A stretch of 47,632 nucleotides of DNA from a virus (lineage: Duplodnaviria > Caudoviricetes), in IMG/VR virus record IMGVR_UViG_3300037851_001291, positions 1-47,632 of that record. One strand, given 5' to 3'. Within the stretch, counting starts at the first letter, position 1; each line of letters starts with the position of its first letter. Shown here piece by piece: positions 1-41,414 of this stretch. Below the pieces are notes generated by a model that was given only the letters and a program-made list of their open reading frames with translations, ran no database searches and was not told the DNA's origin. The position numbers and the translations under genes were made by a program.

Positions 1-76
1 TGTGTCGGGTGGGTGTGTGTGTTGTGTAGGTCAAGATAGACCCTGTTGCAAGCCTGTGCTCAGGCAAGGAAAAACT

Positions 77-529
77 ATGGTAACAAAGCTTACCTGTTCC
101 TTACGGCATGTGAAAAACATGCTGTTTCAATCAAGGTTTAAGGTTGAGCGTTATGAACTCAACAACATGCTAGTCGAGCTGCTTTGGCTGGTTTCCAAGG
201 TTGAAAAGGCCGAGGAACAAACAGACCAAGATCGTTGGAAACAAAGACTAGCAAGGAGACTAAAAACCTTTTTGGCCCACTATGCTTACAACGAGCAAGG
301 TTTTGGCAAAAGCAAGCCTCGTAGTAACTTCAATAAGGCCAGTATCGTGGCTGAACTGGACTTGTCAGGACGCGAACGATTGCTTGCAGAAGTCCAAAGA
401 CTTGGCTTGGAAGTGAGGCCTTTGTTGATAAACAAAGTGGGGGACGAAATTCTTGAGCACCACTATAACCTGGAAACAGCGGTGGCCAAGTACAAAGTGG
501 CTATCTTTTTTGAAGATCACTTGATGTGA
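77..529 (+). CDS. Hypothetical protein (about 150 aa, helical)
   Basis: Long ORF; AAGGA Shine-Dalgarno before the ATG at 77; no motif recognised. Confidence 0.6.
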   Translation: MVTKLTCSLRHVKNMLFQSRFKVERYELNNMLVELLWLVSKVEKAEEQTDQDRWKQRLARRLKTFLAHYAYNEQGFGKSKPRSNFNKASIVAELDLSGRERLLAEVQRLGLEVRPLLINKVGDEILEHHYNLETAVAKYKVAIFFEDHLM

Positions 530-3214: not shown

Positions 3215-3589
3215 TTGGCTTTCCTGGCTAAACCAGCCAGGAGACTTAAACCTGGGGATTCTCATCCATGTTTGATGGGCTTCTATTCGTATTATGTATA
3301 TAGTTGCGCACCAAAAGAAGTATACCAGGAACTAATTGGAAGAAATCCAAAAAACGAAAACGGAAACAGAAAATTTAGGCACCACCAATTCCTAACAGAA
3401 GTTGCGCGTAAATGGCTTGAAAGGCACCTAGCAACATTAGAGACTATGATACGAGGGACTCAATACAATCCAATTAGTTTCAAAATTTTGTTCCGTCAGG
3501 CATTCCCCAAAAATCGTTGCGAACCAATGCAAAAGAAAATCGCCAACGAAGTACGACAAATACAAATGGAGTTGGAGTTTGAATTTTAG
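3215..3589 (+). CDS. P63C-domain protein (C-terminal part only; start uncertain, possibly truncated)
   Basis: YVY...EVYQEL..RNPKNENGNRKFRHHQFLTE...LERHL matches the P63C pattern; TTG start with no clear SD. Confidence 0.7.
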   Translation: MAFLAKPARRLKPGDSHPCLMGFYSYYVYSCAPKEVYQELIGRNPKNENGNRKFRHHQFLTEVARKWLERHLATLETMIRGTQYNPISFKILFRQAFPKNRCEPMQKKIANEVRQIQMELEFEF

Positions 3590-3840: not shown

Positions 3841-3983
3841 AAAATCCACATGCCCATTATGTCCTCTCACTTGAGAGGAAAATAAGCAAGATGCGAGATC
3901 AACTTATCCAAGCAAATGATTTGATCCTATATCTTTCCGAAGAATTAGCAAAATTACAAATAGAATTAAGGAGTAAATGCTAA
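3831..3983 (+). CDS. 50-aa coiled-coil hypothetical protein (not in the ORF track)
   Basis: AAGGAG SD, MEIENPHAHYVLSLERKISKMRDQLIQANDLILYLSEELAKLQIELRSKC, TAATG coupling to ssb. Confidence 0.7.
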   Translation: MEIENPHAHYVLSLERKISKMRDQLIQANDLILYLSEELAKLQIELRSKC

Positions 3984-4474
3984 TGGCTGATTTAAATGAA
4001 ATCCGTTTGATTGGTCGCTTGACAAAAGACCCTGTATCCAAAACAATTCCTTCTGGAACTCAACTGGCAACGTTTGGCCTTGCCACAAGCCACAAATATA
4101 AAGACCAAACTGGAGTAGCAAAAGAAGACACGGTTTTTGTTGATATTACGTGCTGGGGGAAACTTGCCGAACTTGCTTCTAAATACTTAAAAAAAGGAAG
4201 GCAGGTTTTTATTGGTGGAAGACTTCGATATGAGACCTGGGAAGACAAACAGGCAGGACAAAAGCGATCTAAACTCACAGTTGTAGCAGACAACATTCAA
4301 TTTTTGGATGCGAAAAAAGACGAAATGCCGACGAGTGTTCCTCCAGAAGCCTATTCAGCACCAAGTGGTGGCACCCACACATATACTGAAATTCAAGCCG
4401 CTCCTGAAAAGGATATTGTAAAAGATTCTTCCTGGGGCGAACCTCCACAACTAGACGATCAACCTCCTTTCTAA
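3983..4474 (+). CDS. ssb: Single-stranded DNA-binding protein
   Basis: LNEIRLIGRLTKDP, WGKLAE..YLKKGRQVFIGGRL, acidic C-terminal DDQPPF. Confidence 0.96.
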   Translation: MADLNEIRLIGRLTKDPVSKTIPSGTQLATFGLATSHKYKDQTGVAKEDTVFVDITCWGKLAELASKYLKKGRQVFIGGRLRYETWEDKQAGQKRSKLTVVADNIQFLDAKKDEMPTSVPPEAYSAPSGGTHTYTEIQAAPEKDIVKDSSWGEPPQLDDQPPF

Positions 4475-4486
4475 GTTTCCTGCGGG

Positions 4487-4732
4487 GTAGCAATACCCCT
4501 CACGCTCGATTAGAGATTGCAATAATTTTTGGAGCATACCAGAAATCCTTACACTCCGAGTAAGTAGCAATACCCCTCACGCTCGATTAGAGATTGCAAT
4601 TTAGCTTTCCCGCGCATTGCTTCGATGGTTTGAGACTTCCAAGTAGCAATACCCCTCGCGCTCGATTAGAGATTGAAATTGGTTGCATCCTTGAATACAT
4701 GTATTCGTTGGCTTTTCGAGTAGCCCCTCACG
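4487..4732 (+). CRISPR. CRISPR mini-array: three full 37-bp repeats, one degenerate terminal repeat, three spacers (40, 42, 40 bp)
   Basis: GTAGCAATACCCCTCACGCTCGATTAGAGATTGCAAT at 4487-4523 and 4564-4600; 2-mismatch copy ending ATTGAAAT at 4643-4679; remnant GTAGCCCCTCACG at 4720-4732. Unique spacers at 4524-4563, 4601-4642 and 4680-4719. Confidence 0.93.
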
Positions 4733-4775
4733 AATGAAAATTGTTTTAGACTCTCTGAACCAATAAAAATTGGTG

Positions 4776-4802
4776 GACTTGATCATTGAATATGATCAAG
4801 TC
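4776..4802. promoter_or_regulatory. Perfect inverted repeat after the array (hairpin or operator)
   Basis: GACTTGATCAT-tgaat-ATGATCAAGTC. Confidence 0.5.
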
Positions 4803-4880
4803 ATAACGCGCTCCATGCTGGGCTTTAAAGTCAAATTGGCGTCTTTGTAGAACAAAACAAAACAAAAGGAAATAAAAGGA

Positions 4881-5216
4881 ATGAAAATAGAGATTGAACA
4901 GGAGATAAAACCCAAGGCGCGTCCAAGGCTTGGAAAAGGAGGGATTTACTCTCCATCTTCAAAGAAGGAAAAGAGCTTGGCAATGGAAATTTCTTGGAAA
5001 GCACAGGGTAAAAGACTTGGCGATCAGCCATGTGTTTTGACTTTGCGAGTCTCCTATAAAAAGGGAGACCTGGACAACTTACTGAAAACCGTGTGTGATG
5101 CCCTTGAGAAGTCTGGGATAATAGACAACGATTCTCAGATCGAGGAAATCCATGCCTATAAGAACAAACACGAATCAATTCCTAACTCTATAGAAATAGA
5201 CATCTTGTTACAATAG
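4881..5216 (+). CDS. rusA: RusA-family Holliday junction resolvase
   Basis: PKARPR at the N-terminus; DLDNLLKTVCDAL and DNDSQI catalytic motifs. Confidence 0.9.
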   Translation: MKIEIEQEIKPKARPRLGKGGIYSPSSKKEKSLAMEISWKAQGKRLGDQPCVLTLRVSYKKGDLDNLLKTVCDALEKSGIIDNDSQIEEIHAYKNKHESIPNSIEIDILLQ

Positions 5217-5225
5217 TCTTGTTTT

Positions 5226-5254
5226 TGCTGCCAGAAATTGGCAGCATTTTTTTT
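5226..5254 (+). terminator. Intrinsic terminator
   Basis: TGCTGCCA-gaaat-TGGCAGCA-T8. Confidence 0.75.
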
Positions 5255-5267
5255 AGGAGAACAAAAC

Positions 5268-5480
5268 ATGATGATTTACAGTTTGGTAAAAAACATAGAC
5301 ACAATGGAAGATAAGGAAAAGCAAAAATTGTTAGGGGATTTAGTTGAAAAAATAGAATTGAGAGACCAAGGGGAGGTGCGGGCATATTTGGCAGAAAACA
5401 GGGTGGGAAATAAAAAATCAAAAATCGGTTCTAGTGAGTCCTTCTCGACTCCCCGATCGGGACGCTGTTTAAATTTGTGA
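5268..5480 (+). CDS. 70-aa protein resembling the extreme C-terminus of large serine recombinases
   Basis: AGGAG SD; EKQKLLGDLVEKIEL..GEV pattern recalled from large serine recombinase C-termini; no catalytic domain. Confidence 0.45.
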   Translation: MMIYSLVKNIDTMEDKEKQKLLGDLVEKIELRDQGEVRAYLAENRVGNKKSKIGSSESFSTPRSGRCLNL

Positions 5481-29350: not shown

Positions 29351-31117
29351 TTACTTCCATCCAAGATGCTTTTGAATGTTGTTTAAAATTTTTATTTCTT
29401 GCGATTGAAATTCTTTACCGCGTGTAATGTCTTCCAATGCCATTCCATTGCCTTGTTTCTCATTTGGCAAGCTTTCCAATATTGGCTGTTGGGTTTGTCT
29501 CAAAATTTTTTCTTGCATTTTAAGACATTTTTGAACGGCTTTTACATTCGTCTCTTTTTCTAAAAGAGGGCGAATAGATTCTAATTCAGGATTTCTTTGA
29601 ATGGCAGATTCAATAATTTTATTTCTTTGGATTTCTTCAGCTTTTCTTACAATGTTTCCAACCAATCCCAAAGCCGACTCATAACGAGAAGAAAGGATTC
29701 GGTTGGATTTTTTAAGAGCGTTGCATTTTAAGTAAAGAGCCTCCGCGTATTGAAGCAAATTTTTGTATTGTCGAATCGATTTAGAATGGGAAAGAGATTC
29801 TATTTGCTCCTCAGAGCCTTCTAGGTCATCCTCAGAATCTTCTAGGTCATCTTCTGAATCTTCTAAGTCATCTTCTGAATCTTCTAAGTCATCTTCAGAA
29901 TCTTCTAAGTCATCTTCTGAATCTTCTAAGTCATCTTCTGAATCTTCTAAGTCATCTTCTGAATCTCCCAGGTCGTTTTTCAGTTTATCATCTTCAGAAT
30001 CTTCTAAGTCAGAATCTTCTAGGTCATCTTCTGAATCTTCTAGGTCATCTTCTGAATCTTCTAGGTCATCTTCTGAATCTTCTAAGTCATCTTCTGAATC
30101 TTCTAAGTCATCTTCTGATTCTCCCAGGTCGTTTTTCAGTTTATCATCTTCAGAATCTTCTAAGTCAGAGTCTTCTAGGTCATCTTCTGAATCTTCTAAG
30201 TCATCATCCTCATCCTTAAGATCGCCTGGCAATTTTTGAGAAACTTCTTCGTTATCGGATTGATCATTGGGAGAAACAGCGTCATTGGGGACTCCTTGTT
30301 CTGTCATTCCTTTAAGAAGTTTGCTTACAACTCCCACAGAAACCATATCTTCTTTTTCGTCAGCCATAGTTATTCTGGCCTCCTGTATCATTTTGTAAAT
30401 AGAATCACAAATTCTGGAAAGCGAGGCGTCTTGTTTGCGGAATTCCAAAAGTTTCTTTTCAGACTCTTTTAAAATATTTTTTACGCGTTCTTTTTCTTGT
30501 TTGCTTTTTTGTACATATTTTTTTCCACTTACTTGAGCCACGCCAGAAGCAACTTGGATAAGGCTATCCAACACATTATCTAATGGATGATATTGTGAAA
30601 GCGATTCAAAAGCTGGAGTGGCATACGCTCCCAAAGTACTTGGCGAGCAAACAAAATCAAAGGTGTCTAATTCAAAATTGTCCGAAACTACTTCAACTCC
30701 GTTTCGCATTTCAGAGATGCCACGTCCTCTCGAAGAAACACCAATTAAAGTGTTGCGTTGTGCCAACACGCGAAGTATTTCTCCATTGGGTGTAGGAAGT
30801 ATTTCTGAAACACCCAAAATGGCACCGTCGTTTCCTATATGAATGCCTGTAACAATGTGTGATACTCTAGGAAATTTCGTTGTTCCGTCCGATGGATGCT
30901 CTAATTCGCCAAACATTCCTCGTTTGGCGATTCTCTTTTTCACCCCTTCTGATGCGAGTACGTTTTCCCAAAGGCTTCTGGGGTATACTCGACCGTTTTC
31001 GTTTTTCTGATCGCTTTGCTGGTATTTCCCCCGAAGATACAAAACATCACTTCCTCTGGATTCTGTCAAAGAATATTCTAAGGGCATTAACTCTCGAAAT
31101 TCTCGCAATCTTTGCAT
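29351..31117 (-). CDS. Prohead protease (gp21/S77) fused to an acidic repeat and a scaffold-like C-terminus
   Basis: NENGRVYP, GELEHP, VSH, TPNG, GVSSRGRG, FDFVCSPST; start could be 31153, 31117 or 31087. Confidence 0.92.
   Translation of the reverse strand: MQRLREFRELMPLEYSLTESRGSDVLYLRGKYQQSDQKNENGRVYPRSLWENVLASEGVKKRIAKRGMFGELEHPSDGTTKFPRVSHIVTGIHIGNDGAILGVSEILPTPNGEILRVLAQRNTLIGVSSRGRGISEMRNGVEVVSDNFELDTFDFVCSPSTLGAYATPAFESLSQYHPLDNVLDSLIQVASGVAQVSGKKYVQKSKQEKERVKNILKESEKKLLEFRKQDASLSRICDSIYKMIQEARITMADEKEDMVSVGVVSKLLKGMTEQGVPNDAVSPNDQSDNEEVSQKLPGDLKDEDDDLEDSEDDLEDSDLEDSEDDKLKNDLGESEDDLEDSEDDLEDSEDDLEDSEDDLEDSEDDLEDSDLEDSEDDKLKNDLGDSEDDLEDSEDDLEDSEDDLEDSEDDLEDSEDDLEDSEDDLEDSEDDLEGSEEQIESLSHSKSIRQYKNLLQYAEALYLKCNALKKSNRILSSRYESALGLVGNIVRKAEEIQRNKIIESAIQRNPELESIRPLLEKETNVKAVQKCLKMQEKILRQTQQPILESLPNEKQGNGMALEDITRGKEFQSQEIKILNNIQKHLGWK
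29811..30205 (-). repeat. Coding tandem repeat, 21-bp unit (DLEDSED), about 18 units with a higher-order duplication
   Basis: tcttctaagtcatcttctgaa units; the block DLEDS-DLEDSEDDKLKNDLG(E/D)SED occurs twice. Confidence 0.95.
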
Positions 31118-33246: not shown

Positions 33247-33858
33247 CTAACTCCACGCAATCACGTGGGTATCGGAAACATCCAAGCCAACAGTTTTTGG
33301 ATTGGACAAAGACAAAGTTTGATTTCCTGTAGTAGAACGAATTACTGTTATTACAATCACTCCAGAAGAAAATTTTGCGCGCACAGTCCCAGGAGTGGGG
33401 CTTTCCATATAGCCCGTAACATTTACAATCGCTCCAGAGTCTACGGCAACAGTTACTTCTTCCTCTGAATCGGTTTTATTAGCAACGTTGTTGTTATTTT
33501 GCACAAAGATAGAAATTTGCACAGGTTCTCCCAAAACTCCAACAATAGAAGCGTTTGGTGAAAATACAATCTTGGTTTCTTCCTGCTTTAGCATTTCCAT
33601 CAAATTACGCCATTCTTGATCGCGCCAATTCAAAGACGTTGCTCTCAAAGAAAGATCGGGAGGCAAGGTAGGCGAGACACTCAAAAATCCTTCCAGTACT
33701 AAAGCCAAATGGATTGGATTTACCTGGCTTTCTTGCAAAGAAAACTCTTGACCTGGCTGTGAAACCGGGATATTGTTTTGCCCGCTGGAAAGTATCTTGC
33801 TACTTATGTTTTTAAAAACGTAAGTCTGTCCCAAAGGCGGCTGAACTATTCCTGGCAT
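33247..33858 (-). CDS. Hypothetical virion protein with Ig-like C-terminus
   Basis: GGAG SD; beta-rich C-terminal half. Confidence 0.6.
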   Translation of the reverse strand: MPGIVQPPLGQTYVFKNISSKILSSGQNNIPVSQPGQEFSLQESQVNPIHLALVLEGFLSVSPTLPPDLSLRATSLNWRDQEWRNLMEMLKQEETKIVFSPNASIVGVLGEPVQISIFVQNNNNVANKTDSEEEVTVAVDSGAIVNVTGYMESPTPGTVRAKFSSGVIVITVIRSTTGNQTLSLSNPKTVGLDVSDTHVIAWS

Positions 33859-34949
33859 GTTTCTTCTCTCCAATACTCAATAAATTTTTGCATTTTTTTC
33901 TCTAAATTTTTTACGCGATTTTCTAACTCATAATGCTGGCTTAGCAATTCATCATACTCAAGCCTTGGCTTAATCTCTGATGACATTACACTTTTCTCGA
34001 AATCAAATAAAAGCTCGCCAATTTCTTTGTATTTGTTCCAAACGGAATTGTTAAAAATTTTTTGCAATGATTGTGGTAGTACACTCGATAAAGATTTGTA
34101 ATATGCTTCTCTATATTCCTTATCAGACACAAGGCGTACCGGCTCTTCTGGCTTTGGACACTTCGCAAAACTATAGAATTCCCACAACATAACCCCTAAA
34201 GAGAAAATATCATCATCAAATGATGCCTGCCAACCTTCTCTCGAAAGAACCAACTTTTCAGAAGCATAAGGCAGAGTCCCAAAAACATCACCCTTTATGG
34301 AAATATTGGAATCTAGGCCAATATATTTGGATTGTGCCCAATCAACTGGGCATATCACTGGCTTCTCTCGCGAAGTTCCAGTCAGTAGAATATTTTCTGG
34401 CTTAAGGTCTCTGTGAATTACGTCAAGTTCATGAATTTTTTGGATTGCCTTTAAAAGAATGTAGTAGAGCTTAATAGAAACATCTATATTCTTTTCATCC
34501 CGAACATACCATAAAATGTTGCTACCTTCGACATATTCCATGAGAAGACACAAAAATGGAGTTTCTTTTACTTCAATGACTCTAGGAATATAAATTATTT
34601 CTAGCCCGCCGTTTAATTGGCTGGCAACAAAATTTTGGTTCTTTGCCCCTCGAAGAAAACGTTCGCGCCTTTTATTGGGCGTTTCGATTTCTTGGTATTT
34701 AAAAATTCCCTGCTTGTGAACCGTAATCGTTCTTTCAAAAATTGTCGAGGCAATTTTGAGAACGAAAATTTTTTTTTCTTTGTTTGCAACTTTAATTACG
34801 GCTCCTTCAAGGCCACAACAAAGAAGTCCGATCAAAGAAAGTTCTGGGTAAACAGCAGCCAACAAACGATTCAACAATTCCTTTGGACACATTGGTTCTT
34901 TATGTGTAAATTTCATCAATGTGTTGATGTCCACTGTGTATTGATTCAT
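33846..34949 (-). CDS. Hanks-type Ser/Thr protein kinase with C-terminal coiled coil
   Basis: FVLKI (VAIK), LLMEYVEG, HRDLKPENILL, DWA (DFG position), GTLPYASE, DIFSLGVMLWE; alternative start 35018. Confidence 0.93.
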   Translation of the reverse strand: MNQYTVDINTLMKFTHKEPMCPKELLNRLLAAVYPELSLIGLLCCGLEGAVIKVANKEKKIFVLKIASTIFERTITVHKQGIFKYQEIETPNKRRERFLRGAKNQNFVASQLNGGLEIIYIPRVIEVKETPFLCLLMEYVEGSNILWYVRDEKNIDVSIKLYYILLKAIQKIHELDVIHRDLKPENILLTGTSREKPVICPVDWAQSKYIGLDSNISIKGDVFGTLPYASEKLVLSREGWQASFDDDIFSLGVMLWEFYSFAKCPKPEEPVRLVSDKEYREAYYKSLSSVLPQSLQKIFNNSVWNKYKEIGELLFDFEKSVMSSEIKPRLEYDELLSQHYELENRVKNLEKKMQKFIEYWREETCQE

Positions 34950-34966
34950 AGGGCTGCCTTTATTTT

Positions 34967-35506
34967 TTATTTTTTGTTGAGGTTGGATGGCAGATTGGGC
35001 GGCAATGAATTGCCCCACATATCAATTTCTTTTTTTTCTTTTTCACTTTCTTTTATTTTTTTGAACTTTGCTCTTTGAACTCTTTCTTCCATTCTTTCTA
35101 TAAAAAAAGAAGAAATCAACCCAGGCGGTGTCTTCAATTTCCAAATTATTGTTACTACACCAGCCAATAGTGTTCCTAAAAATTCCAGAAAAATAGTAAG
35201 AGACAACTTGATTTCTTGAGGCGAAATTCCCATTTTTATGAGGGCGAGAATGTACCCAAAAATTGTAAAAAGAACAACCGAAGTACACAAAATTGCTAAG
35301 TCTTTATTTAATTCAAAAAAAGTCAAAAACTTTATAAATAGACTTGTTTTGGGAATTGTCTCATTGATGTCCCTAGGCGTCTTTTTTATTTCTTCGCTTT
35401 TCAACTCTATTTTGTTGGCTATGGGTGTCTTTTTTATTTCTTCGCTTTTCAACTCTATTTTGTCTTCCAGCAAATGGCTTTGTGTCATTTTGTTTTCTGC
35501 TGCCAT
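34967..35506 (-). CDS. Two-TM membrane protein, holin-like candidate
   Basis: Two hydrophobic helices and a highly charged C-terminus; N-terminal duplication KIELKSEEIKKTP. Confidence 0.6.
   Translation of the reverse strand: MAAENKMTQSHLLEDKIELKSEEIKKTPIANKIELKSEEIKKTPRDINETIPKTSLFIKFLTFFELNKDLAILCTSVVLFTIFGYILALIKMGISPQEIKLSLTIFLEFLGTLLAGVVTIIWKLKTPPGLISSFFIERMEERVQRAKFKKIKESEKEKKEIDMWGNSLPPNLPSNLNKK
35379..35463. repeat. Direct repeat, 37 bp identical, 48-bp period
   Basis: gtcttttttatttcttcgcttttcaactctattttgt at 35379 and 35427. Confidence 0.9.
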
Positions 35507-38654: not shown

Positions 38655-40352
38655 TTAGTCTTTCTTTTTGCCAATGATTTCTTCTAAAACCTTAATGGAA
38701 AGCCCTGTTTTATGAGCCATTTCCTTTATAGGAGATCGTTTACTATGCAAGTGCGCAATCAAATTTAATTGATTTTGGGTTATGCTAGGCATTCCTTGTT
38801 TTGTCAGTCCTTCATTGATTGTATTGAGACTCAGTAAAGAATTTTGTAAAAATTCTTTCATGGAAAGGTTGGACTTTTTTGGCAAAGAAGATTCTTGAGC
38901 TTTGGGCACCTGGGTACCAAAATTAGAGTAATCAAAAGTTGAACCCGGCTGGCTATATCCTGGATAAGCCATCTTTTCTTTCTTCAAAGGAGTCTCTTGG
39001 GCATTCCCCATTTCTACTGAATATCCCTGGGATGAAAGCGAGTCATAAATCCTTTGGGCGGTCGTTTCATCGGGCACAGAAATCAAAAATTGACCAGAAG
39101 ACGATCCGTCAGCCTCCACCCAACCTTGAGGGGTTTGATTTAAAACTATACTTCCTGGAGAAAGTAAACCACTGTCCAACATCATTTGATAAACATTGGA
39201 AGCATTGGCTTGGGCTTTGTCAGAATCACGAACAAAAACTGCATACTCATTTAATACCAATGGTGCTGGAACTTCGTCTTTGATGTCTCCTGGTTGGATT
39301 TCTTCTGGCGGATCAGAATTGGGAAATTCTTGAGAAAGCGGGTCTCGAGAAAGCAAGTCTTGAGTAATTGTAAATTCTTTACCTTCTTTGGTATGATAAA
39401 CTTTTTGATGTTTGCCAGGCTTTAAAGTATAAGACTTGCTTTCGTCCGATAACTCCGAAACTTGTATATTCTCTCCGCACGTAAGACAACGATAAGCATC
39501 GCCAACTCCTGCGACTGTTCCACCACATTTAGGACAAGAACCAGGAATTACTCCCTTTGCTTGATCTAGTTGGGAATTTCCTGAGTAGCCCATGGGTGCA
39601 ACCATTGCAGTAGAAGTTACCACTTCCAAAATTTTTTGCCCACAATTGGGACAATTGCTAGACTTTGTTATTTTTCCACATTCGGAACAATGCAACGATT
39701 TTTTGTAAGTCTCTACCATCCCATTTGTCATTCTGGCTTTGTAGCCACAAGAACGACATTCAAAGACTCTCTTTTTTATTCTGACGGCTTCAGAATCGCA
39801 ATTAGGACATACTCCTTCAAAATGTTTTGTTCCTTGACATTTTACATTTTGTAAGTCTCTAACATGTTGAAAGGAAAGCCCATACTCGTTAGCCAATCGC
39901 TCTGTAGACAATTTCTCTGTAGACAATTTAGCGACATCTTCTGACAAAAAGCCTTCAGCTTTTTCTTTACATCGAAAAATTAAAATCGTGTTTTCTTTCC
40001 CCTCGTGCACTTTAACTTCTTTTCCTATATAATTGGCGCACTCCTGCAACATTGCTTTATGACAATGCTCAACAACGAGAACTACAGAGTTGCTGTTTTG
40101 ATCTATATAGCCTTTCTTTATTTTTACGCCAGATTCTATAGCCCTAGACGCAATCCAATCTCCTACATCGCGAATAGAACGAATAGCCAGTTTGTCTCCT
40201 TCTAAAAAGTTAAATATATTTTCTATATGCCCGCCTAAGTGATAATATTCCACCATAGCATTAACTTTTTTTCTGAAAGATTTATTTTCTTGAATGTCTC
40301 GAATGTACACATATCTTAAAGGAAGTTTTTTATTGGCTACAACTTCTATCAT
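38655..40352 (-). CDS. Large protein with three zinc ribbons and possible C-terminal HTH; first gene of the leftward late operon
   Basis: CPNC/CRSC, CSEC/CPNC and CPKC/CLTC pairs; IKEMAHKTGLSIKVL; GAGGAG SD. Confidence 0.75.
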   Translation of the reverse strand: MIEVVANKKLPLRYVYIRDIQENKSFRKKVNAMVEYYHLGGHIENIFNFLEGDKLAIRSIRDVGDWIASRAIESGVKIKKGYIDQNSNSVVLVVEHCHKAMLQECANYIGKEVKVHEGKENTILIFRCKEKAEGFLSEDVAKLSTEKLSTERLANEYGLSFQHVRDLQNVKCQGTKHFEGVCPNCDSEAVRIKKRVFECRSCGYKARMTNGMVETYKKSLHCSECGKITKSSNCPNCGQKILEVVTSTAMVAPMGYSGNSQLDQAKGVIPGSCPKCGGTVAGVGDAYRCLTCGENIQVSELSDESKSYTLKPGKHQKVYHTKEGKEFTITQDLLSRDPLSQEFPNSDPPEEIQPGDIKDEVPAPLVLNEYAVFVRDSDKAQANASNVYQMMLDSGLLSPGSIVLNQTPQGWVEADGSSSGQFLISVPDETTAQRIYDSLSSQGYSVEMGNAQETPLKKEKMAYPGYSQPGSTFDYSNFGTQVPKAQESSLPKKSNLSMKEFLQNSLLSLNTINEGLTKQGMPSITQNQLNLIAHLHSKRSPIKEMAHKTGLSIKVLEEIIGKKKD

Positions 40353-40381: not shown

Positions 40382-40454
40382 TTTTTTCTAATTAATTAAA
40401 CAGGCTTAAAACGCAAATTTACAATTTCTTGTCTGTTTAATTAATTAGAAAAAA
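40382..40454. promoter_or_regulatory. Perfect 22-bp inverted repeat at the divergence point of the two late operons
   Basis: TTTTTTCTAATTAATTAAACAG (40382-40403), 29-bp spacer, CTGTTTAATTAATTAGAAAAAA (40433-40454). Confidence 0.75.
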
Positions 40455-40649: not shown

Positions 40650-41414
40650 ATGATAGACCTAAATAAGCGACTTGGATGGAAACCAGAACCACCTGACGCA
40701 AGAGACGTAAAACTAGGGGCGCATCTAGCTTTACGTCTCCCTGATTCTTTGCCAAACACCATATCCCTTCGCGAAAAACAATCTCCCGTGCGTGACCAAG
40801 GAGAAACAAATTCATGCACAGGATTTGCTTTGGCGGCTCTTCGCGAATATCTTGAAATTGTTGACCAAGAACGTGGAAACCCAGAAGCAACCAAAGGTTT
40901 TTTGTCACCTCTTTTTATCTATAACAAAGAACGAGAGCGCGAGGGAACTTTAGAAATAGACTGTGGAGCCTACCTCCGAGATGGTTTAAAAATCCTACAA
41001 AAATGGGGAGTGCCCAAAGAAGAACATTTTCCATTCTTGCCAGAAAACATAAAAATCTCACCTTTTGTTGGAGAAGCGTCGTATTTGCATTGTATTTACG
41101 CATACATGAAAATTGCTTGCTTGCAAGAGGCAAAAATAGCTTTAGCCATGAAACTTCCCGTTGTCTGTGGTCTAAGCATCTATGAAAATTGGGATTTGCC
41201 CATTGTCTGGAAACAAGGATTAATTCCTGACCCTCAAGGAAGAGTAGTTGGTGGGCACGCTGTATTGCTTGTAGGATACAACGACGAAAAACAACAACTG
41301 ACCTATAAAAACAGTTGGGGAGAACAATGGGGAGATCGTGGTTATTTTCACACAGACTATAATTATTTTGAAAAAAATGGAGCAGACTTTTGGACTGTAT
41401 TGCAATGGAGATAA
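40650..41414 (+). CDS. Papain-like cysteine peptidase (family C1A)
   Basis: VRDQGETNSCTGFA (Gln/Cys), LSPLFIY, GGHAVLLVGY (His), KNSWGEQWGDRGY (Asn). Confidence 0.95.
   Translation: MIDLNKRLGWKPEPPDARDVKLGAHLALRLPDSLPNTISLREKQSPVRDQGETNSCTGFALAALREYLEIVDQERGNPEATKGFLSPLFIYNKEREREGTLEIDCGAYLRDGLKILQKWGVPKEEHFPFLPENIKISPFVGEASYLHCIYAYMKIACLQEAKIALAMKLPVVCGLSIYENWDLPIVWKQGLIPDPQGRVVGGHAVLLVGYNDEKQQLTYKNSWGEQWGDRGYFHTDYNYFEKNGADFWTVLQWR

What the first reader, a model, noticed from the sequence alone, without database searches (positions are those of the whole stretch)
4487..4732. Phage-borne, leaderless, cas-less CRISPR mini-array fused to the ssb transcript
Seen: three 37-bp repeats ending ATTG(C/A)AAT, three unrelated 40-42-bp spacers and a decayed fourth repeat. 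The array starts 12 bp after the ssb stop, so there is no leader, and no cas gene is visible in 47 kb. Established: an ATTGAAA(N) 3' end is the 8-nt handle left by Cas6 in type I and III systems, and phage mini-arrays can borrow host Cas machinery. Handle and decayed trailer both point to + strand transcription with the early operon. I saw no protospacer in this window by eye. Inference: early crRNAs that redirect the host effector against competing phages or host genes, or act as decoys. The repeat should also identify the host.
Basis: partly seen in the sequence, partly recalled or inferred. Interest (0 to 1): 0.85.

Follow-up and report, generated by a model that had tools for sequence, protein, structure and literature searches.

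The report
Phage three-spacer CRISPR mini-array after ssb
A partly assembled freshwater phage, likely infecting a relative of the cell-engulfing planctomycete Uabimicrobium, carries a tiny CRISPR-like array right behind its ssb gene with no cas genes in the assembled part; it likely borrows the host's CRISPR proteins against rival phages, a known trick, but neither the host array nor any target was found.

Summary
The array is real: three 37-bp repeats (4487, 4564, 4643; two identical, one with 2 changes), spacers of 40, 42 and 40 bp, and a truncated fourth repeat from 4720. It starts 12 bp after the ssb stop, between ssb and rusA. No cas gene was detected in 47.6 kb. However, the record is a linear IMG/VR fragment rated 29% complete, so 'cas-less phage' is not shown. 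The repeat did not identify the host: no array with this repeat was found in viral, metagenome or GTDB scans. The SSB instead groups with Ca. Uabimicrobium SSBs, a moderate host lead. No spacer target was found in the contig, IMG/VR seeds, phage or plasmid collections, or related phages. The best reading is a leaderless viral mini-array, likely co-transcribed with the early operon, cut by host Cas6 and loaded into a host class 1 effector (type III or I) against competing mobile elements. Leaderless, cas-less phage mini-arrays are a described class, so this is a new member of a known kind. Expression, processing, subtype and target all remain inferred.

The parts
3977..4474 (+). ssb gene (likely start 3983); its transcript would run into the array
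   Evidence: PF00436 E 7e-32, phrog_44; groups with Ca. Uabimicrobium SSBs
4475..4486 (+). 12-bp gap; no room for a leader
   Evidence: sequence
4484..4499 (+). predicted 6-bp hairpin with a GCAA loop, formed by three upstream G plus the 5' end of repeat 1
   Evidence: pairing probabilities 0.95-0.99 in the 4440-4830 context; z -1.8 against shuffles for 4470-4523; role inferred
4487..4523 (+). repeat 1 (37 bp)
4524..4563 (+). spacer 1 (40 bp), no target found
4564..4600 (+). repeat 2, identical to repeat 1
4601..4642 (+). spacer 2 (42 bp), no target found; codon score leans antisense to a coding strand
   Evidence: LLR +4.3
4643..4679 (+). repeat 3, two substitutions, ends ATTGAAAT
4680..4719 (+). 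spacer 3 (40 bp), no target found
4720..4743 (+). truncated fourth repeat lacking the CTC/GAG stem; likely trailer end
   Evidence: 1.4% of background windows score as well
4776..4802 (.). perfect 11-bp inverted repeat after the array; operator or RNA hairpin, role unknown
4881..5216 (+). rusA-like resolvase gene, followed by a terminator-like site at 5226-5246
   Evidence: PF05866

Best explanation
This is a three-spacer CRISPR-type mini-array lying between ssb and rusA on a phage contig with no detectable cas gene; it is likely co-transcribed with the early operon, likely cut by the host's Cas6, and its guides would steer a host class 1 effector (type III or type I) against competing phages or other mobile elements. 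Shown: the anatomy, the position, and the lack of cas and of self-targets within the 47.6 kb. Inferred step 1: + strand read-through from ssb to the terminator-like site at 5226-5246. Inferred step 2: cleavage at the base of the short CTC-GATTA-GAG stem, leaving an 8-nt handle on each of three guides; the fourth repeat has lost this stem and would give no extra guide. Inferred step 3: loading into the effector of an Uabimicrobium-related host. Inferred step 4: the targets are rival elements. Having no leader, the array would be a frozen or recombination-fed piece of a host array, not one that adds spacers itself.
For: Repeats and spacers are far beyond chance and have array geometry. Decay runs left to right (0, 0, 2 changes, then truncation), and repeat 3 ends ATTGAAAT. 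PMC4869251 (passages) names both trailer-end decay and ATTGAAA(N) as direction marks. A 3-bp stem sits directly before the last 8 nt, with pairing probability 0.25, 0.5 and 0.6 in R1-R3; that Cas6 cuts at such a site is recalled knowledge. Flanking genes are all on +, and no terminator-like site lies between ssb and the array. On +, all three spacers follow an intact handle. No spacer matches the contig itself (longest exact 9-11 nt). Precedent: virus mini-arrays without cas target related viruses, and phage ones lack leaders (PMC6858448 passages; PMC11656645 passages; PMC7099407 passages). [quoted passage not shown] A Bro-N antirepressor gene hints at a temperate lifestyle, where such arrays are commonest. 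Run X1 has contigs that share this early region and then diverge (loose ends at 3252 and 3969), a hint of a co-occurring relative.
Against: No cas-linked array with this repeat was found: 0 hits; the 38 looser hits are single copies at 19-25 of 37 identity; no array in 401 Chloroflexota genomes. Planctomycetota genomes could not be searched with mismatches. No target: seed hits extend to only 26/42, 23/40 and 27/40; chance-level BLAST hits only in phages and plasmids and in 50 viral records. Spacers are not recoded copies of this phage's genes or of 369 fetched homologues, unlike typical kin-targeting arrays. The record is 29% complete. R1 and R2 end ATTGCAAT, not the canonical motif. The spacer strand test is mixed (LLR -2.4, +4.3, +0.8), so type III is not established. 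The more AT-rich flank is downstream (65% against 52% upstream and 60% overall), which would suit a leader on the other side. 0 of 83 related viral loci carry this repeat, so conservation is not shown.
Confidence: 0.5

Rival explanations
1. The array is served by Cas proteins encoded on the unassembled part of this phage (class 1 module or a compact type V effector), as in CRISPR-bearing large phages.
For: Record linear and rated 29% complete. A 2,098-nt contig of run X1 overlaps only window 1-99. The three capsid relatives are 73-96 kb fragments rated 32-44% complete. Large phages carry compact arrays and partial systems (PMC7162821 passages). Some Cas12f repeats are also 37 nt (recalled, no call).
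Against: No cas gene within 4.4 kb upstream or 43 kb downstream, whereas phage effectors usually sit beside their array (for Cas12j). Rfam shows nothing at gathering score.
Confidence: 0.15
2. The RNAs are counter-defence: they soak up host Cas6/Cas7 (Racr-like) or guide the host effector to cas promoters or other host genes (Cracr array).
For: Position in an early operon would give abundant early RNA. Multi-spacer Cracr arrays exist, including three-spacer ones (10.1101/2024.10.29.618823, abstract and section 7). No viral target was found.
Against: Racrs are solitary repeats (PMC10651486 passages); here there are three near-perfect repeats with full-length spacers. Reported Cracr arrays target I-C, I-E or I-F in other phyla. 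No acr or aca gene was recognised nearby.
Confidence: 0.17
3. An inert relic: a trailer-end piece of a host array picked up by recombination and now decaying.
For: Truncated R4, no leader, no target, and no copy in 83 related viral loci; the closest SSB-bearing virus (L067) has ssb, terminator, then the next gene with no array.
Against: R1 and R2 are identical and all three handles and stems are intact. Trailer decay is normal in working arrays. An in-operon position makes transcription hard to avoid.
Confidence: 0.13
4. The array is read from the minus strand from a promoter in the AT-rich 4741-4880 region, or is not CRISPR-derived at all.
For: Minus-strand repeats also end in ATTG plus four bases and fold slightly better (-7.7 against -4.7 kcal/mol, neither significant). 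The downstream flank is more AT-rich. No cas-linked copy of the repeat is known from these scans.
Against: No promoter-like site there. Decay gradient, ATTGAAAT end and gene direction all favour +. Constant 37-bp repeats with unique 40-42-bp spacers fit no tandem or coding repeat.
Confidence: 0.05

Closest known systems
Leaderless phage/prophage CRISPR mini-arrays (Faure et al. 2019, seen only as cited in PMC6858448, PMC7099407, PMC11656645; survey in 10.1101/2023.03.03.530964)
   Same: Short array on a virus, no adjacent cas, no leader, intergenic position in a phage operon.
   Different: Three spacers rather than the usual one or two. Identity to a host repeat and targeting of related viruses, both typical of the class, were not found here.
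SPV1/SPV2 portoglobovirus mini-CRISPR arrays (PMC6858448, passages)
   Same: Virus-borne, cas-less, no self-targeting.
   Different: Those have host-like leaders with promoters and shown cross-targeting spacers, in archaeal viruses.
CRISPR arrays of huge phages (PMC7162821, passages and supplement search)
   Same: Compact arrays, many without interference or adaptation genes, proposed to use host Cas.
   Different: Median six repeats and often a nearby effector; this repeat's 12-nt core motifs were absent from the 10 supplementary files held (one cut when stored).
Cracr arrays (10.1101/2024.10.29.618823) and Racr solitary repeats (PMC10651486)
   Same: Virus-encoded repeat RNAs that use host Cas6/Cascade.
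   Different: Racrs are single repeats. Cracrs are defined by seed matches to host cas promoters or CreA/CreR guides, which could not be tested without the host.

Membership tests
CRISPR array | Near-identical repeats separated by unique spacers of similar length | tested here: met
   3 x 37 bp, spacers 40/42/40 bp, unrelated; 0 of 100 shuffles
CRISPR array | Repeat also found in a cas-linked array | tested here: inconclusive
   No array in exact-pattern scans or 401 Chloroflexota genomes; likely host class not searchable with mismatches
CRISPR array | Spacers derive from foreign elements (protospacers) | tested here: inconclusive
   No match beyond chance; one 17-18-nt seed per spacer in IMG/VR only
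Viral CRISPR mini-array | Located in a virus genome | tested here: met
   IMG/VR virus record; capsid, portal, terminase, sheath, baseplate genes
Viral CRISPR mini-array | No cas genes on the virus | tested here: inconclusive
   None in 47.6 kb, but record rated 29% complete
Viral CRISPR mini-array | Short (1-2 spacers in the strict definition; 3 or more repeats also counted in the 2023 survey) | tested here: met
   3 spacers; met under the wider usage, one over the strict one
Viral CRISPR mini-array | Repeat identical to the host's | not testable with these tools
   Host genome not found or not held
Viral CRISPR mini-array | Spacers target related viruses, not self | tested here: inconclusive
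   No self-target; no close relative was retrievable and no target found
Class 1 (Cas6-processed) repeat | Short stem directly before an 8-nt 3' handle of ATTGAAA(N) type | tested here: inconclusive
   Geometry present, stem weak (0.25-0.63); canonical motif only in R3; cleavage untested
Type III array | Guides antisense to target mRNA | tested here: inconclusive
   Codon LLR -2.4, +4.3, +0.8; published bias itself only about 2:1 (PMC8482600 passages)
Racr (solitary repeat unit) | Single repeat without a partner | tested here: not met
   Three full repeats
Cracr array | Spacer seed pairs with a host cas or toxin promoter | not testable with these tools
   Host locus unavailable

The most novel reading that the evidence does not exclude
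A phage of the cell-engulfing planctomycete lineage around Ca. Uabimicrobium feeds a host type III (RNA-targeting) system from inside its own early mRNA. Host Cas6 would both release three antiviral guides and split the ssb-rusA message, with the hairpin built from the 12-bp gap and repeat 1 capping the ssb part. The array would then be a weapon against rival phages and an mRNA-processing site at once, with a repeat family not yet tied to any cas locus.
Probability: 0.12. Interest if true: 0.6.

Novelty: new member of a known kind. Interest (0 to 1): 0.32.

Why it matters
It adds a virus-borne CRISPR mini-array with an unmatched repeat, on a phage that may infect a barely sampled and unusual lineage. 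Two paper searches (Uabimicrobium with CRISPR; Uabimicrobi* with phage; listings only) showed no title on its phages or CRISPR systems. Once the host is binned, the repeat would link phage, host and subtype, and the three spacers would name competitors. As it stands, with no host array, target or expression data, it mainly extends a described class.

Tried and rejected
Repeat searches: IMG/VR with a 33-nt pattern, 0 hits; 5' half plus handle, 0; 3' 17-nt, 8 single hits. JGI metagenomes: 23-nt, 0; 18-nt, 29 single hits. GTDB: 20-nt, 1 hit in a Chloroflexia genome, single in that genome even at 3 mismatches. All 38 were rejected as chance. 401 Chloroflexota genomes: 43 with one or two scattered matches, no array; one of them (G348) is unpublished and enters only this null tally. 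Rfam: nothing at gathering score, two chance hits at E 3-8. Repeat motifs in paper main texts: 2 irrelevant listings; none in 5 supplementary files of PMC8482600; only short coding-sequence hits in PMC7162821 supplements. bioRxiv supplements, including the viral mini-array table S10 of 10.1101/2023.03.03.530964, were not seen and could hold this repeat. Spacer searches: one seed each in IMG/VR gave 6, 17 and 1 hits, none extending; phage and plasmid BLAST chance only; 50 of the 83 related viral records searched whole, 5 with 15-26-nt chance hits; peptide-level comparison with the window, two capsid-relative loci, L067 and 369 proteins never beat shuffles, apart from one score of 35 against a shuffle maximum of 32 in L004 that I read as chance. 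Sister arrays: a simple finder flagged two-copy repeats in 8 of 83 viral loci; by eye most are coding repeats, none resembles this repeat, not followed further. Hidden effector: the 565-aa zinc-ribbon protein shows no Cas-like match. Runs: one DNA holder, possibly the source; no RNA holder listed. Its listed contigs do not cover the array interior; one stops at 4516, 30 nt into R1, as a graph break at a repeat would give. Promoter scan: 6 sites against 9.6 expected, so the 10/12 site inside ssb (4019-4047) is not evidence. No look-alike in earlier findings. The kinase search gave no host signal. Two scripts returned nothing and were rerun smaller.

Full report
Observation. The sequence holds three 37-bp repeats at 4487, 4564 and 4643. 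The first two are identical; the third differs at two positions and ends ATTGAAAT. No shuffle of the window gives even one such match (0 of 100). Spacers are 40, 42 and 40 bp and unrelated. A fourth, truncated repeat begins in register at 4720; 1.4% of background windows align as well, so it is probable, not certain. The ssb stop ends at 4474, leaving 12 bp.

Context. The window is a whole IMG/VR virus record, linear, rated 29% complete. It encodes a T4-like capsid, portal, protease, sheath and baseplate, plus a + strand early module: Sak4-like ATPase, Bro-N antirepressor, ssb, the array, rusA, then a terminator-like site. No replication, integrase or lysis module was recognised, which fits a fragment. 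A contig of the one holding run overlaps only bases 1-99 of the first 20 kb and runs on; it could be new sequence or the other end of a circle. No cas gene was detected by four profile libraries or by six-frame searches for Cas1, Cas6 and RAMPs. The TnpB zinc-ribbon hit is a sub-cut-off CxxC match in a 565-aa protein with no Cas-like neighbour by sequence or predicted structure. 'Cas-less' therefore holds for the contig only.

Host. The repeat did not give the host. Exact-pattern scans of IMG/VR, JGI metagenomes and GTDB returned nothing or single chance matches. The SSB gives a lead. Among the 120 listed homologues, the best named ones are from Ca. Uabimicrobium (64% identity over two thirds of the protein). 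They share a DI(T/S)CW motif and a W...PPF tail; 36 of 120 end in PPF or LPF. In a tree of 53 of the 120, the phage SSB lies in a long-stemmed clade (support 0.93) whose only named members are the two Uabimicrobium proteins. The named outgroups were Verrucomicrobia only, and this is one gene, so the assignment is moderate. That Uabimicrobium is a cell-engulfing planctomycete is recalled knowledge.

Direction and processing. For +: decay increases rightwards, R3 has the ATTGAAA(N) end (both are direction marks in PMC4869251, passages), all flanking genes are on +, and each spacer follows an intact handle. A 3-bp stem (CTC/GAG) sits just before the last 8 nt, the geometry of Cas6-cut class 1 repeats (recalled); it is weakly populated (0.25-0.63) and is deleted in R4. 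Against: R1 and R2 end ATTGCAAT, the minus strand also ends in ATTG plus four bases, and the more AT-rich flank is downstream. Spacer lengths of 40-42 bp suit type III, I-A or I-D (recalled). The test for antisense spacers is mixed. Three upstream G residues pair with the start of R1 into a well-populated hairpin. In virus L067, whose SSB is of the same clade, ssb is followed by a hairpin with a T run and no array. The R1 hairpin may stand in as a 3' cap for the ssb message after Cas6 cuts; this is inference.

Targets. None was found. The spacers do not match the contig, do not extend from IMG/VR seeds, give chance hits only in phage and plasmid collections and in 50 viral records, and are not recoded copies of this phage's genes or their homologues. 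The searches had little power: the closest retrievable viruses share 40-46% capsid identity or 61% SSB identity. Closer relatives exist but could not be fetched: a 76% identical Sak4 homologue and a sister-clade SSB each lie on a contig of 5,948 bp, and run X1 holds contigs that diverge from this early region.

Mechanism. Best supported (0.5): read-through transcript, host Cas6, host class 1 effector, rival elements as targets. Only the anatomy is shown; the rest follows precedent. Rivals: counter-defence RNAs (0.17), own cas on the missing part (0.15), inert relic (0.13), opposite strand or non-CRISPR (0.05).

Comparison. Cas-less virus mini-arrays that use host machinery against related viruses are described, and phage ones are reported to lack leaders (PMC6858448, PMC7099407, PMC11656645; passages). 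[quoted passage not shown] Multi-spacer Cracr arrays (10.1101/2024.10.29.618823, abstract and section 7) and solitary Racrs (PMC10651486, passages) are the counter-defence relatives. This locus works like a leaderless phage mini-array; two defining features, a host-identical repeat and kin targeting, remain untested or unfound. It is not a Racr by anatomy.

Verdict. Real, and a new member of a known kind. What is new is the unmatched repeat, the likely host lineage and the in-operon position with a junction hairpin. Interest 0.32.

Noticed in passing
window 4776-4802 and 832-848: A perfect 11-bp inverted repeat just after the array and a related CTTGAC/GTCAAG inverted repeat near the start of the early region; possibly operators of one repressor.
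   Followed up: partly
window 5268-5480 (+): 70-aa ORF after the rusA terminator; nearest Atlas cluster with a family is DUF4368 (score 0.92, on 29% of members). It looks like a leftover serine-recombinase C-terminus (recalled link); a lead only.
   Followed up: partly
window 33846-35018 (-): Phage-borne Ser/Thr protein kinase (PF00069); one close homologue at 36% identity on a 25.6-kb contig.
   Followed up: partly
window 38655-40352 (-): 565-aa protein with several zinc ribbons, first gene of the leftward operon; no family or fold match.
   Followed up: partly
window 40382-40454: Perfect 22-bp inverted repeat with 29 nt between the arms, between the divergent operons; possible regulatory site or origin.
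   Followed up: no
window 40650-41414 (+): Papain-family cysteine peptidase gene ahead of the terminase module.
   Followed up: no
window 29769-30227: 21-bp tandem repeats inside the 600-aa prohead protease gene.
   Followed up: no
window 3252, 3969, 18755 and 1-99: Contigs of run X1 diverge at these places or run past the window start, hinting at a co-occurring relative with a different cassette at ssb.
   Followed up: partly
L067 10001-10950: A 33.5-kb virus with an SSB of the same Uabimicrobium-like clade; ssb is followed by a hairpin with a T run and no array. Second candidate phage of this lineage.
   Followed up: partly
L098 5200-5300 and L099 3890-4030: Two-copy 21-23-bp repeats at 76-78 bp spacing in related proviral loci; could be coding repeats or a small array.
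   Followed up: no
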